A program made the position numbers. From assembly GCF_058153355.1 (NCBI RefSeq), contig NZ_CM177019.1: a DNA stretch of 64,000 nt; one strand, given 5' to 3'. Each line of letters starts with the position of its first letter. Position 1 is the first letter of the stretch. Shown in pieces: positions 37,817-40,800 of this stretch.

Positions 37817-40800
37817 TAATAATGCTACGCCTGTAAAGCGCACTGGCAGTTCCCTCTCCCCTCTGGGGAGAGGATTAGGGTGAGGGGCGCAAACCCGCTC
37901 CGGGGCCATTAATTACCCTGAATTTGATTATTTACACCACGGTAACAGGAACAACATATGCAGTTTGACTGGAGTGCCATCTGGCCTGCCATTCCGCTTC
38001 TGATTGAAGGTGCCAAAATGACCCTGTGGATTTCGGTCCTCGGTCTGGCTGGCGGCCTGGTGATCGGATTGCTGGCAGGTTTTGCACGCACCTTCGGTGG
38101 TTGGATATCCAACCACGTCGCGCTGGTCTTTATTGAAGTGATCCGCGGCACACCTATCGTCGTCCAGGTGATGTTTATCTACTTCGCCCTGCCGATGGCG
38201 TTTAACGACTTACGCATCGACCCATTTACTGCGGCGGTGGTCACCATCATGATCAACTCCGGCGCATACATTGCGGAAATCACGCGTGGTGCGGTGCTGT
38301 CTATCCACAAAGGTTTCCGTGAAGCAGGACTGGCTCTCGGCCTTTCACGTTGGGAAACCATTCGCTACGTCATTTTACCGCTGGCACTGCGTCGTATGCT
38401 GCCGCCGCTGGGTAACCAGTGGATCATCAGCATTAAAGACACCTCGCTGTTTATTGTTATCGGCGTGGCGGAACTGACCCGTCAGGGGCAAGAAATTATT
38501 GCCGGTAACTTCCGCGCCCTTGAGATCTGGAGCGCCGTGGCGGTGTTCTATCTGATTATTACCCTGGTGCTGAGCTTTATTCTGCGTCGTCTGGAAAGAA
38601 GGATGAAAATCCTGTGATTGAATTTAAAAACGTCTCCAAGCATTTTGGTCCAACCCAGGTGCTGCACAATATCGATTTGAACATTGCTCAGGGCGAAGTC
38701 GTGGTGATTATCGGGCCGTCCGGTTCCGGTAAATCGACTCTGCTGCGCTGCATCAACAAACTGGAAGAAATCACTTCCGGCGATCTGATTGTCGATGGCC
38801 TGAAGGTTAACGATCCGAAAGTTGACGAGCGCCTGATTCGCCAGGAAGCGGGTATGGTGTTCCAGCAGTTTTACCTCTTCCCGCATCTGACGGCGCTGGA
38901 AAACGTCATGTTTGGCCCGCTACGTGTACGTGGCGCGAACAAAGAAGACGCTGAAAAACTGGCGCGTGAACTGCTGGCGAAAGTCGGTCTGGCAGAACGT
39001 GCACATCACTACCCTTCCGAACTTTCTGGTGGTCAGCAGCAGCGTGTGGCGATTGCCCGCGCGCTGGCGGTGAAGCCGAAAATGATGCTATTTGATGAAC
39101 CAACTTCCGCTCTTGACCCGGAACTGCGCCATGAAGTGCTGAAGGTTATGCAGGATCTGGCTGAAGAAGGCATGACGATGGTGATCGTGACCCACGAAAT
39201 CGGTTTTGCCGAGAAAGTCGCTTCGCGTCTTATCTTCATTGATAAAGGCCGAATTGCAGAAGATGGCGATCCGCAGGCGTTGATCAAGAACCCGCCGAGC
39301 CAGCGCTTGCAGGAATTTTTGCAGCACGTCTCTTAACTTCTCAGCCTCCCTTTCCCCCGAAAGGGAGGCACACCAGATTCCTCTCATTTAAAATCGCCCC
39401 TCCCCCAGCATCTATACTTATCTTTTTGCTCTGTTTTCTCACTGGAGGAGTCATGCGGTGGATCCTGTTCATCCTCTTCTGCCTGCTGGGCGCACCTGCC
39501 CACGCGGTATCCATACCCGGCGTTACAACCACAACGACAACGGACTCAACGACTGAACCGGCCCCGGAACCGGATATCGAACAAAAAAAAGCGGCCTATG
39601 GCGCACTGGCGGATGTGCTGGATAATGACACCTCGCGTAAAGAGTTGATCGACCAGTTGCGCACCGTCGCCGCTACGCCTCCTGCGGAACCCGTACCGAA
39701 GATCGTGCCGCCGACGCTGGTTGAAGAGCAAACCGTGCTGCAAAAGGTCACCGAAGTCAGCCGCCATTATGGTGAAGCCCTTTCCGCCCGCTTCGGACAA
39801 CTTTATCGCAATATCACCGGCTCCCCGCATAAGCCGTTTAATCCACAAACCTTCAGCAATGCGTTGACCCATTTTTCAATGTTAGCGGTATTAGTGTTTG
39901 GTTTTTACTGGCTGATTCGCCTGTGCGCACTTCCGCTGTATCGCAAAATGGGCCAGTGGGCGCGGCAAAAAAATCGTGAGCGCAGTAACTGGTTGCAGCT
40001 TCCGGCGATGATTATCGGGGCGTTTATTATCGACCTGCTGTTACTGGCACTGACATTATTTGTCGGCCAGGTCTTAAGCGACAACCTGAATGCGGGCAGT
40101 CGCACCATCGCTTTCCAACAAAGTTTGTTTCTCAACGCCTTTGCCCTGATTGAATTTTTCAAAGCCGTACTACGCCTGATTTTTTGCCCCAACGTGGCGG
40201 AGCTGCGCCCGTTCACGATTCAGGACGAAAGCGCCCGTTACTGGAGTCGTCGCCTGAGCTGGTTAAGCAGCCTGATTGGGTATGGTCTGATTGTGGCTGT
40301 GCCGATTATCTCTAATCAGGTGAATGTGCAAATCGGTGCGCTAGCGAACGTCATCATTATGCTGTGCATGACGGTCTGGGCGTTGTACCTGATCTTTCGT
40401 AATAAAAAAGAGATTACCCAGCATTTGCTCAACTTCGCGGAACACTCGCTGGCCTTTTTCAGCCTGTTTATTCGCGCTTTTGCGCTGGTGTGGCACTGGT
40501 TGGCAAGCGCCTATTTTATCGTGCTGTTTTTCTTTTCGTTGTTCGATCCGGGCAACAGCCTGAAATTTATGATGGGTGCAACGGTACGCAGCCTGGCGAT
40601 TATTGGTATCGCCGCGTTTGTTTCCGGTATGTTTTCCCGCTGGCTGGCGAAAACCATCACTCTCTCGCCACATACTCAGCGTAATTATCCGGAACTGCAA
40701 AAACGGCTGAACGGCTGGCTTTCGGCGGCACTGAAAACGGCGCGTATTCTTACCGTCTGCGTGGCGGTGATGTTGCTGTTGAGCGCATGGGGATTGTTCG

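What the first reader, a model, noticed from the sequence alone, without database searches (positions are those of the whole stretch)
37852..37905. GC-rich palindromic element in the glnH-glnP spacer
A stable hairpin (CCTCTCCCC/GGGGAGAGG) plus adjacent GC-rich segment lies inside the glnHPQ operon between the binding-protein and permease genes. This looks like an intra-operon attenuator or mRNA stabiliser that would give differential expression of glnH versus glnPQ; it is probably a conserved feature.
Basis: seen in the sequence. Interest (0 to 1): 0.15.

Follow-up and report, generated by a model that had tools for sequence, protein, structure and literature searches.

The report
BoxC repeat hairpin ending glnH mRNA
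This is a copy of BoxC, a known short repeat scattered through E. coli genomes, lying between glnH and glnP; its hairpin sits exactly where public data map the end of a glnH-only RNA, so it is ordinary but probably helps make more binding protein than transporter.

Summary
The hairpin is real: CCTCTCCCC/TCT/GGGGAGAGG at 37853-37873, RNA dG -18.3 kcal/mol, inside the E. coli glnHPQ operon. It is not a locus-specific invention. Together with the "adjacent GC-rich segment" (GGGTGAGGGG, 37878-37887) it forms the three-block motif of BoxC, also called PIT or TMECO. A 66-nt query finds a median of 15 places per genome in 5,425 of 5,426 complete E. coli genomes.

This copy is fixed in E. coli. It is missing from the published list of 23 K-12 TMECO copies because of one G-to-A change.

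Published Term-seq data for K-12 list an RNA 3' end at 847200(-), 4 nt after the stem (window 37877). It has no U-tract, and no Rho region is listed there. BoxC-like copies read in the opposite orientation also give ends after the stem: two at +4 nt and one at +11.

All 82 distinct Enterobacteriaceae glnH-glnP spacers examined hold a strong hairpin, but from at least four unrelated sequence families. In E. coli the loop and third block vary while the stems do not.

Best reading: a REP-like exonuclease barrier that stabilises glnH mRNA. "Attenuator" and "conserved sequence" are not supported. Low novelty.

The parts
37853..37873 (+). Hairpin: 9-bp perfect stem CCTCTCCCC / GGGGAGAGG with a 3-nt loop TCT. 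It lies on the glnHPQ sense strand.
   Evidence: RNA dG -18.3 kcal/mol. Both stem arms are invariant in 40 E. coli sequences, while the loop has 4 variants.
37852..37887 (+). Three-block PIT/TMECO triplex motif: CCCTCTCCCC - TCT - GGGGAGAGGA - TTA - GGGTGAGGGG.
   Evidence: It matches the published pattern CCCTCNCCC N3-6 GGGNGAGGG N3 GGGNGAGGG except for one G-to-A change at 37874. Nine of ten base triplets are allowed purine-motif triplets.
37838..37891 (+). Full BoxC repeat unit (about 54 nt), including the conserved 5' flank GCGCACTGGCAGTT.
   Evidence: Alignment with 11 K-12 BoxC copies: the conserved columns 17-70 of A1 correspond to these coordinates, and the 5' flank matches the family consensus GCnCGGACGGTC.
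37877..37877 (+). Position equivalent to the K-12 Term-seq RNA 3' end at 847200(-), 4 nt after the last paired base.
   Evidence: PMC7815308 Supp. file 1. Rows were seen in the LB 0.4 sheet (30,332 reads) and the LB 2.0 sheet (130,459 reads). The coordinate occurs three times in a three-sheet file. Coordinates were mapped through L001.
37827..37922 (+). 96-nt block specific to the E. coli lineage. It contains BoxC and replaces a 52-nt block with a REP-like hairpin found in the nearest relatives.
   Evidence: Spacer comparison with L003 (cryptic Escherichia) and L004 (E. albertii). The 3' part of the block is single-copy and at least 99% identical in 5,316 E. coli records.
37923..37957 (+). Conserved part of the spacer next to the glnP ribosome-binding site (TTTGATTATTTACACCACGGTAACAGGAACAACAT). 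It holds the Shine-Dalgarno sequence and, according to the literature, the GlnZ sRNA target. It is context, not part of BoxC.
   Evidence: Conserved across Enterobacteriaceae spacers. GlnZ pairs just upstream of the glnP Shine-Dalgarno sequence (PMC9731577; bioRxiv 10.1101/2022.04.01.486790). The exact pairing coordinates were not computed here.
37073..37819 (+). glnH, encoding the periplasmic glutamine-binding protein. This is the upstream cistron.
37958..38617 (+). glnP, encoding the permease. This is the downstream cistron, followed by glnQ at 38614-39336.

Best explanation
The element is a slightly diverged copy of the E. coli dispersed repeat BoxC (also called PIT or TMECO). In an ancestor of E. 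coli it replaced a REP-like hairpin in the glnH-glnP spacer.

In the glnHPQ transcript its 9-bp G+C-rich hairpin most likely acts as REP hairpins do in other binding-protein operons. RNA polymerase reads through it. The glnPQ part of the mRNA is then removed: endonucleolytic cleavage in the AU-rich stretch downstream and/or GlnZ-triggered decay provides an entry site. The 3'-to-5' exonucleases PNPase and RNase II stall at the stem. This leaves a stable glnH-only RNA that ends 4 nt after the hairpin, which favours more GlnH than GlnPQ.

Shown: identity as BoxC; the hairpin; a mapped 3' end at +4 in K-12; the lack of a U-tract; the universal presence of a hairpin in this slot.

Inferred: that the hairpin causes the 3' end; that the end arises by trimming rather than termination; that it changes the GlnH:GlnPQ ratio. 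The third block, which gives triplex potential in DNA, is probably irrelevant to this RNA role.
For: 1. Repeat identity. The 66-nt element finds a median of 15 places per genome (up to 30) in 5,425 of 5,426 E. coli genomes. It aligns with 11 K-12 BoxC copies across about 54 nt. It matches the TMECO pattern with one mismatch.
2. RNA 3' end. K-12 Term-seq places an end at 847200(-), 4 nt after the stem, with 30,332 and 130,459 reads in two sheets. The coordinate occurs three times in the three-sheet file.
3. Other copies. BoxC-like copies transcribed in the opposite orientation also carry Term-seq ends: 4 nt after the stem at 3781065(+) and 4231270(-), and 11 nt after it at 632098(+). The hairpin, not the G-rich third block, is therefore the common factor.
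4. Not termination by either known route. There is no U-tract or terminator-like site on the + strand, and no Rho region is listed at 846400-847299.
5. Known mechanism. 3' ends immediately after stable stem-loops without U-tracts are known to arise by PNPase/RNase II trimming, and REP hairpins are known to resist exonucleases (PMC6061677).
6. Slot conservation. All 82 distinct Enterobacteriaceae spacers have a strong hairpin, with a median best dG of -20.9 kcal/mol. In 76 of 82 the folding z-score against dinucleotide shuffles is below -2. The hairpins belong to at least four unrelated families with similar stability: -17.6, -18.3 and -19.4 kcal/mol for representatives of three of them.
7. Polymorphism. 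In 40 E. coli sequences sampled without constraint on the core, all 5 variable core sites lie in the loop or third block and none in the 18 stem positions (hypergeometric p = 0.023).
8. Repaired stem. This copy carries T instead of the family's usual G at 37857, which repairs the internal G.A mismatch (dG -18.3 versus -16.7 kcal/mol).
9. Separable fates. In Salmonella a GlnZ pulse lowered glnP and glnQ more than fourfold, and glnH is not named among the repressed genes. The two parts of the mRNA can therefore have different fates.
Against: No experiment links this hairpin to glnH mRNA half-life or to the GlnH:GlnPQ ratio.

Holder et al. 2015 and Hoyne & Maher found no general effect of these elements on gene expression.

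Of the roughly 23-32 K-12 copies, only about four coincide with curated Term-seq ends. Expression level was not controlled for.

The polymorphism test is small (p = 0.023) and would also fit gene conversion or palindrome-specific mutation in the loop.

Repeat elements may simply accumulate in permissive spacers after highly expressed genes, so a universal hairpin is not proof of selection.

The Term-seq data are from K-12, not from this strain. The stems and tail are identical, but the loop is TAT in K-12 and TCT here.
Confidence: 0.6

Rival explanations
1. The copy is a neutral or selfish repeat with no function at this locus. It is merely tolerated in a permissive spacer. The RNA 3' end is an incidental by-product that any stable hairpin would give, with no meaningful effect on expression.
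For: The family has tens of copies per genome with no association to gene function, distance or operon position. Earlier tests found no promoter or terminator activity and no effect on RNA polymerase. The slot has been overwritten repeatedly by different mobile-looking repeats, both REP-like and BoxC. In one strain an IS21-family element inserted into the hairpin.
Against: Not one of 82 distinct spacers lacks a strong hairpin, including the shortest ones of 73-86 nt, which carry a non-repeat, terminator-like hairpin. The stems are invariant while the loop and third block vary. The internal mismatch typical of the family is repaired in this copy. The element is fixed in 5,400 of 5,426 genomes at 95% identity or more.
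Confidence: 0.27
2. The hairpin is an intra-operon transcription attenuator. It stops a fraction of RNA polymerases, by intrinsic or factor-dependent termination, so that fewer transcripts reach glnPQ.
For: The 3' end lies 4 nt after a G+C-rich stem. In 23 other Enterobacteriaceae the same slot holds a hairpin followed by a T-run that looks like an intrinsic terminator. REP/BIME elements have been reported to attenuate transcription in some contexts (reference B32 in PMC6061677).
Against: The tail is AUUAGGGUGAGG, which is not a U-tract, and the terminator scan finds nothing on the + strand here. [quoted passage not shown] No bicyclomycin-sensitive region is listed. No promoter-like site lies in the spacer, so glnPQ most likely depend on read-through.
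Confidence: 0.08
3. The relevant activity is at the DNA level. The three blocks fold into an intrastrand purine-motif triplex (or a cruciform) that stalls replication or repair and promotes local genome instability. The position inside glnHPQ is incidental.
For: Nine of ten triplets are allowed in this haplotype. TMECO oligonucleotides form triplexes in vitro, and TMECO loci are more variable between strains than control loci (PMC4666352). The spacer is polymorphic, and an insertion sequence sits in the hairpin in one genome.
Against: In vivo footprinting did not detect the triplex. In E. coli the third block at this locus is decaying: a G-to-A change in the middle of the block, a 1-nt deletion, and GGAG in the sister lineage. 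The terminal triplet is already lost. The locus is intact and at least 95% identical in 5,400 of 5,426 genomes, so it is not notably unstable. A DNA role does not explain the RNA 3' end.
Confidence: 0.05

Closest known systems
BoxC, also called PIT (potential intrastrand triplex) element or TMECO, of E. coli (Bergler/Bachellier 1990s; Hoyne & Maher 2000 and 2002; Holder et al. 2015, PMC4666352)
   Same: It has the same three-block motif, the same conserved 5' flank and the same length of about 54-56 nt. It is intergenic, chromosomal and multi-copy. It is closest to 'type A mm', with TTA in the second loop.
   Different: It has three substitutions relative to the type-A consensus: 37851 C-to-T, 37857 G-to-T and 37874 G-to-A. 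The last change breaks the published search pattern, so this copy is absent from the list of 23 MG1655 TMECOs. The second change removes the internal stem mismatch that is typical of the family.
REP/BIME hairpins acting as intercistronic mRNA stabilisers in binding-protein-dependent transport operons (Newbury et al. 1987, cited; the malE-malF and hisJ-hisQ examples are from my own knowledge)
   Same: It is a stable hairpin between a highly expressed binding-protein gene and the membrane-component genes. It has no U-tract, and an RNA 3' end lies just after the stem. In 39 of 82 related spacers the slot is actually occupied by a REP-like GCCCGG..CCGGGC hairpin.
   Different: The sequence family is different: BoxC, not REP. 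Stabilisation has not been demonstrated for this locus.
Stem-loop-protected 3' ends of non-intrinsically terminated transcripts (Dar & Sorek 2018, PMC6061677)
   Same: A precise steady-state 3' end lies immediately downstream of an energetically stable stem-loop that is not followed by uridines.
   Different: Those ends mostly follow Rho-dependent termination at the ends of operons. Here the end is inside an operon and no Rho region is listed.
GlnZ sRNA repression of glnP (Walling et al. 2022; Miyakoshi et al. 2022)
   Same: It acts in the same spacer and has the same outcome: glnPQ is expressed differently from glnH.
   Different: GlnZ pairs next to the glnP Shine-Dalgarno sequence in the conserved 3' part of the spacer (about 37923-37957), not in BoxC. 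The two could cooperate, with GlnZ-triggered decay stopped at the hairpin, but this is untested.

Membership tests
BoxC / PIT / TMECO dispersed repeat | Three-block motif CCCTCNCCC N3-6 GGGNGAGGG N3 GGGNGAGGG | tested here: inconclusive
   It matches with one mismatch: GGGAGAGGA instead of GGGAGAGGG at 37874. The strict published pattern therefore fails, but a search allowing up to 2 substitutions finds it. The sister-lineage copy (L002) has the canonical G.
BoxC / PIT / TMECO dispersed repeat | Many dispersed copies per E. coli genome | tested here: met
   The 66-nt query gives 78,831 places in 5,425 of 5,426 genomes, with a median of 15 and a maximum of 30 per genome. Of these, 78,783 are on chromosomes and 48 on plasmids. 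The family is essentially absent from phage records.
BoxC / PIT / TMECO dispersed repeat | Conserved flanks beyond the triplex core, giving the roughly 56-bp BoxC unit | tested here: met
   The 5' flank GCGCACTGGCAGTT aligns with the family consensus GCnCGGACGGTC. Conserved columns span about 54 nt.
BoxC / PIT / TMECO dispersed repeat | Intergenic location | tested here: met
   It lies between the glnH stop codon (37819) and the glnP start codon (37958).
BoxC / PIT / TMECO dispersed repeat | Base triplets compatible with an intrastrand purine-motif triplex; triplex formation in vitro | tested here: met
   Compatibility was computed: 9 of 10 triplets are allowed (G.G-C, A.A-T, T.A-T). Actual triplex formation cannot be tested with these tools. 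Some E. coli haplotypes carry a disruptive change in the middle of the block.
REP-type intercistronic mRNA stabiliser (functional class) | Stable stem-loop on the sense strand between cistrons, without a U-tract | tested here: met
   dG is -18.3 kcal/mol and the tail is AUUAGGGUGAGG.
REP-type intercistronic mRNA stabiliser (functional class) | RNA 3' end mapped just 3' of the stem | tested here: met
   Public K-12 Term-seq places an end at 847200(-), 4 nt after the stem. The data come from K-12, not from this strain.
REP-type intercistronic mRNA stabiliser (functional class) | Removing the hairpin lowers upstream mRNA half-life and expression | not testable with these tools
   This needs mutants and rifampicin chase experiments. 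No publication on it was found.
REP (repetitive extragenic palindrome) sequence family | REP consensus sequence | tested here: not met
   The sequence is BoxC. REP-like GCCCGG..CCGGGC hairpins occupy the slot in other genera but not here.
Intrinsic terminator / attenuator | G+C-rich hairpin directly followed by a U-tract | tested here: not met
   The scan reports no terminator-like site on the + strand in the spacer, and the tail has only 2 U in the first 8 nt.
Any Rfam RNA family | Covariance-model match at or near the gathering score | tested here: not met
   The best overlapping hits have E-values of 2.2-2.8 and scores of 15-18 bits against gathering scores of 37-40.

The most novel reading that the evidence does not exclude
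BoxC/PIT/TMECO elements have been reported for 25 years as having no RNA-level function. They may in fact be orientation-independent RNA 3'-end-defining and stabilising hairpins. On this reading, the glnH-glnP spacer is a selected 'hairpin slot' that has been refilled by at least four unrelated hairpin families across Enterobacteriaceae: terminator-like, REP-like, the Klebsiella type and BoxC. Selection would then act on the presence of a roughly -18 kcal/mol stem-loop that sets the binding-protein to transporter stoichiometry, not on any particular sequence.
Probability: 0.3. Interest if true: 0.45.

Novelty: already known. Interest (0 to 1): 0.2.

Why it matters
It matters little. The element belongs to a repeat family described in the 1990s and is present at the same place in E. 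coli K-12. Its most likely role, a hairpin that protects the upstream binding-protein mRNA, is the classic REP paradigm.

Three modest points may be useful:
- This copy and other slightly diverged copies are missed by the strict TMECO pattern.
- Public Term-seq data, never discussed in this respect, place RNA 3' ends just after BoxC-like hairpins in both orientations: 4 nt after the stem at three copies and 11 nt at a fourth. This gives the family an RNA-level phenotype.
- The glnH-glnP spacer is a clean example of a hairpin slot that is conserved while its occupant turns over. It could be used to test whether such hairpins set subunit stoichiometry in ABC-transporter operons, and how that interacts with GlnZ control of glnP.

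Tried and rejected
- **Rfam.** A permissive search of 36600-39500 found only chance-level hits in the spacer.
- **Terminator and promoter scans.** No + strand terminator and no promoter-like site was found in the spacer. The scan is stringent, so the missing promoter is weak evidence.
- **RNA triplex or G-quadruplex.** I first read the Term-seq sequence column as ending at the 3' end. That placed the end after GGGUGAGGGG and suggested an RNA triplex or G-quadruplex protecting it. The file header and the sgrS terminator row show that the 3' end is base 51 of 61, so the end is 4 nt after the stem. BoxC-like copies transcribed in the opposite orientation also give ends after the stem, at +4 for two and +11 for one, and purine-motif triplexes are reported not to form in RNA. 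The idea was dropped.
- **Rho-dependent termination inside glnP followed by trimming.** No Rho region or 3' end is listed at 846400-846999. This is not excluded, because such regions are under-detected.
- **Other transcript-end data sets.** The supplement of Dar & Sorek 2018 is not held. The SMRT-Cappable-seq supplements have no glnH or glnP entry. The paper I tried for protein-synthesis-rate data (PMC4006352) is not held. Literature searches for a described glnH-glnP stem-loop found nothing.
- **Remnants of the ancestral REP-like hairpin.** I considered whether the non-BoxC parts of the E. coli-specific block are such remnants. The similarity is too weak to claim. The 3' part is single-copy.
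- **Third Term-seq sheet.** I could not display the row for 847200 in the third sheet (M63). I looked in parts 29 and 32. Its presence is inferred from three occurrences of the coordinate in a three-sheet file.
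Full report
**Observation.** The window region 37073-39336 encodes GlnH, GlnP and GlnQ on the + strand, with dps upstream and ybiO downstream. The same order and a near-identical 138-nt glnH-glnP spacer are found in E. coli K-12 MG1655. The reported hairpin is exact: CCTCTCCCC (37853-37861), loop TCT, GGGGAGAGG (37865-37873). This pattern occurs once in the window against 0.03 expected by chance. As RNA it folds at -18.3 kcal/mol and dominates the ensemble.

**What it is.**
- The 66 nt around the hairpin are not unique. They find 78,831 places in 5,425 of 5,426 complete E. coli genomes, with a median of 15 and up to 30 per genome, almost all on chromosomes. Phage records contain essentially none.
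- The literature identifies the family as BoxC. It was rediscovered as the PIT (potential intrastrand triplex) element and renamed TMECO, with the pattern CCCTCNCCC N3-6 GGGNGAGGG N3 GGGNGAGGG (PMC4666352; PMC2267715).
Nine of ten base triplets are allowed purine-motif triplets.
- Alignment with 11 K-12 copies shows that the unit extends about 14 nt upstream (GCGCACTGGCAGTT) and a few nt downstream, giving roughly 37838-37891.
- This copy differs from the commonest type ("A mm") at three positions. One change, G-to-A at 37874, breaks the published search pattern, which explains why the glnH-glnP copy is not among the 23 MG1655 TMECOs listed. Another, G-to-T at 37857, repairs the internal G.A mismatch that most copies carry. 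The stem here is therefore continuous and slightly more stable (-18.3 versus -16.7 kcal/mol).

**Distribution at this locus.**
- With flanks, the 301-nt region is present at 95% identity or more and 80% coverage or more in 5,400 of 5,426 E. coli genomes. One of the partial hits, strain B2.3, has an IS21-family element (ISEc10) inserted in the 5' arm.
- Outside E. coli the picture changes. I examined 80 glnH loci from different Enterobacteriaceae species. Only Escherichia sp. E1V33, the closest to the window by glnH and glnP nucleotide identity, has BoxC in the spacer.
- A cryptic Escherichia lineage labelled E. coli (L003, 4-6% diverged) and E. albertii carry a REP-like hairpin (GCCCGG...CCGGGC) in a 52-nt block. 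E. coli has a 96-nt block (37827-37922) in its place. Only the 7 nt after the stop codon and the last 35 nt before glnP are shared.
- BoxC therefore replaced an older hairpin in an ancestor of E. coli.

**The slot is conserved, the occupant is not.**
- Every one of the 82 distinct spacers holds a strong single hairpin. The best dG ranges from -13.7 to -38.4 kcal/mol with a median of -20.9.
- The spacers fold better than dinucleotide shuffles, with a median z-score of -3.3 and 76 of 82 below -2.
- The hairpins fall into unrelated families:

| Family | Spacers |
|---|---|
| BoxC | 3 |
| REP-like GCCCGG..CCGGGC | 39 |
| CAGGGGCG..CGCCCCTG followed by a T-run (terminator-like; mostly the shorter spacers, most 73-100 nt) | 23 |
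| Klebsiella-type CAGGCCTG | 6 |
| Others | 11 |

- Representative hairpins of three of these families have nearly the same stability: -17.6, -18.3 and -19.4 kcal/mol.

**Transcript evidence.**
- Adams et al. 2021 (PMC7815308) list a curated Term-seq 3' end at 847200 on the minus strand of MG1655. It is classed "orphan" because it lies 58 nt after the glnH stop codon, beyond their 50-nt limit.
- It has 30,332 reads in LB at OD 0.4 and 130,459 in LB at OD 2.0. The coordinate occurs three times in the three-sheet file.
- The sequence column gives 50 nt upstream, the 3' end, and 10 nt downstream. I checked this on the sgrS terminator row.
- 847200 is therefore the last A of GGAUUA, 4 nt after the stem, which corresponds to window position 37877.
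- The tail is not U-rich, and the terminator scan finds nothing on this strand. No Rho termination region or other 3' end is listed between 846400 and 847299.
- The same table has 3' ends after BoxC-like hairpins transcribed in the opposite orientation: 4 nt after the stem at 3781065(+) downstream of lldD and at 4231270(-), and 11 nt after it at 632098(+). The hairpin, not the G-rich third block, is what these ends share.
- Dar & Sorek 2018 showed that precise 3' ends just after stable stem-loops lacking U-tracts arise by PNPase/RNase II trimming. They also note that REP hairpins resist exonucleases.

**Variation within the species.** I scanned metagenome contigs with a pattern that fixes only the flanks and leaves the core free. 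This returned 34 contigs. Together with six genomes, that gives 40 sequences and six core haplotypes.
- The loop occurs as TAT, TCT, GCC or AGCC.
- The third block occurs as GGGTGAGGGG, GGGTGAAGGG or GGGTGA-GGG, and as GGGTGAGGAG in the sister lineage.
- The 18 stem positions never vary. All five variable core sites fall in the 18 non-stem positions (p = 0.023).
- This fits constraint on the hairpin and none on triplex potential. The sample is small, and loop hypermutation or gene conversion could contribute.

**Mechanism.**
- The best-supported reading is that the BoxC hairpin works like an intercistronic REP stabiliser. Polymerase reads through, which is probably required because no promoter-like site lies in the spacer. 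The glnPQ part of the mRNA decays, and exonucleases stop at the stem, leaving a stable glnH-only RNA.
- Decay of the glnPQ part could start in the AU-rich stretch 37907-37940. It could also be triggered by the GlnZ sRNA, which pairs next to the glnP Shine-Dalgarno sequence and represses glnP.
- In Salmonella a GlnZ pulse lowered glnP and glnQ more than fourfold, and glnH is not named among the repressed genes.
- The causal steps are inferences: that the hairpin causes the end, that the end arises by trimming rather than termination, and that it affects protein ratio.
- The main rival is that the copy is a tolerated selfish repeat whose 3' end is incidental. Earlier work found no promoter or terminator activity and no general expression effect for these elements.
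- Attenuation and a DNA-triplex role are less likely, for the reasons given under the rival explanations.

**Verdict.** A discrete glnH 3' end does exist at the hairpin, and a hairpin here looks functionally required. It is not an attenuator, and it is not a conserved sequence. Novelty is low: the family and the kind of mechanism are known, and the locus is the same in K-12. The modest new points are the RNA 3'-end phenotype of BoxC-like hairpins in public data and the turnover of hairpin families in a conserved slot.

Noticed in passing
L093 2290-2530 (E. coli strain B2.3, NZ_CM185023.1); equivalent to window ~37857: An IS21-family element (ISEc10, istA/istB) is inserted into the 5' arm of the BoxC hairpin. 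It separates glnH from glnPQ in this one genome. This fits with hairpin repeats being insertion targets.
   Followed up: partly
L003 (NZ_JAATUR010000020.1, labelled Escherichia coli SCPM-O-B-8794), spacer after locus position 2244: The record is named E. coli, but its glnH and glnP are 5.6% and 3.8% diverged from the window. The spacer is 94 nt with a REP-like hairpin and no BoxC. It is probably a cryptic Escherichia clade rather than E. coli proper.
   Followed up: partly
L025, L033, L034, L048, L068, L076 and 17 other loci: glnH-glnP spacers: In 23 Enterobacteriaceae species the slot holds CAGGGGCGACCTTTCGCCCCTG followed by a T-run, directly before the conserved ribosome-binding region. It looks like a leaky intrinsic terminator inside the operon and may be the ancestral state.
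   Followed up: partly
window ~37020 (K-12 848057, minus strand): The K-12 Term-seq table lists an RNA 3' end 53 nt upstream of the glnH start codon, in the glnH 5' UTR, in the LB OD 2.0 sheet. This suggests premature termination or processing in the leader.
   Followed up: no
window 36711-36744: The dps terminator hairpin (AGCGGCTTCCTGACAGGAGGCCGTT followed by a T-run) coincides with the strong K-12 Term-seq end at 848340. It also draws weak, spurious Rfam hits (ctRNA_p42d, E = 0.009; STnc70; isrD).
   Followed up: no
window 37409-37909, minus strand: A 166-aa ORF antisense to glnH starts inside the BoxC element (MAPERVCAPHPNPLPRGERE...). It is almost certainly an artefact, but it is the kind of ORF that gene callers may pick up at BoxC copies.
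   Followed up: no
L089 (pstB-pstA spacer) and L090 (yihR-yihS spacer) of K-12: Other BoxC copies also sit between adjacent genes on the same strand, including the pstA-pstB spacer of another ABC-transporter operon. There the C-rich block-first strand is antisense to the genes.
   Followed up: no
L087 ~430-523 (frlR-yhfS), L092 ~421-514 (fimH-gntP), L089 ~430-495 (pstB-pstA): Three of the 12 K-12 BoxC copies examined have a canonical REP sequence within about 70 nt. BoxC and REP may share preferred landing sites, as the replacement at glnH-glnP also suggests.
   Followed up: no
K-12 632098(+) and 4231270(-) (PMC7815308 Supp. file 1): At least two further diverged BoxC-like copies of MG1655 are absent from the published 23-copy TMECO table. 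The strict pattern therefore undercounts the family.
   Followed up: partly
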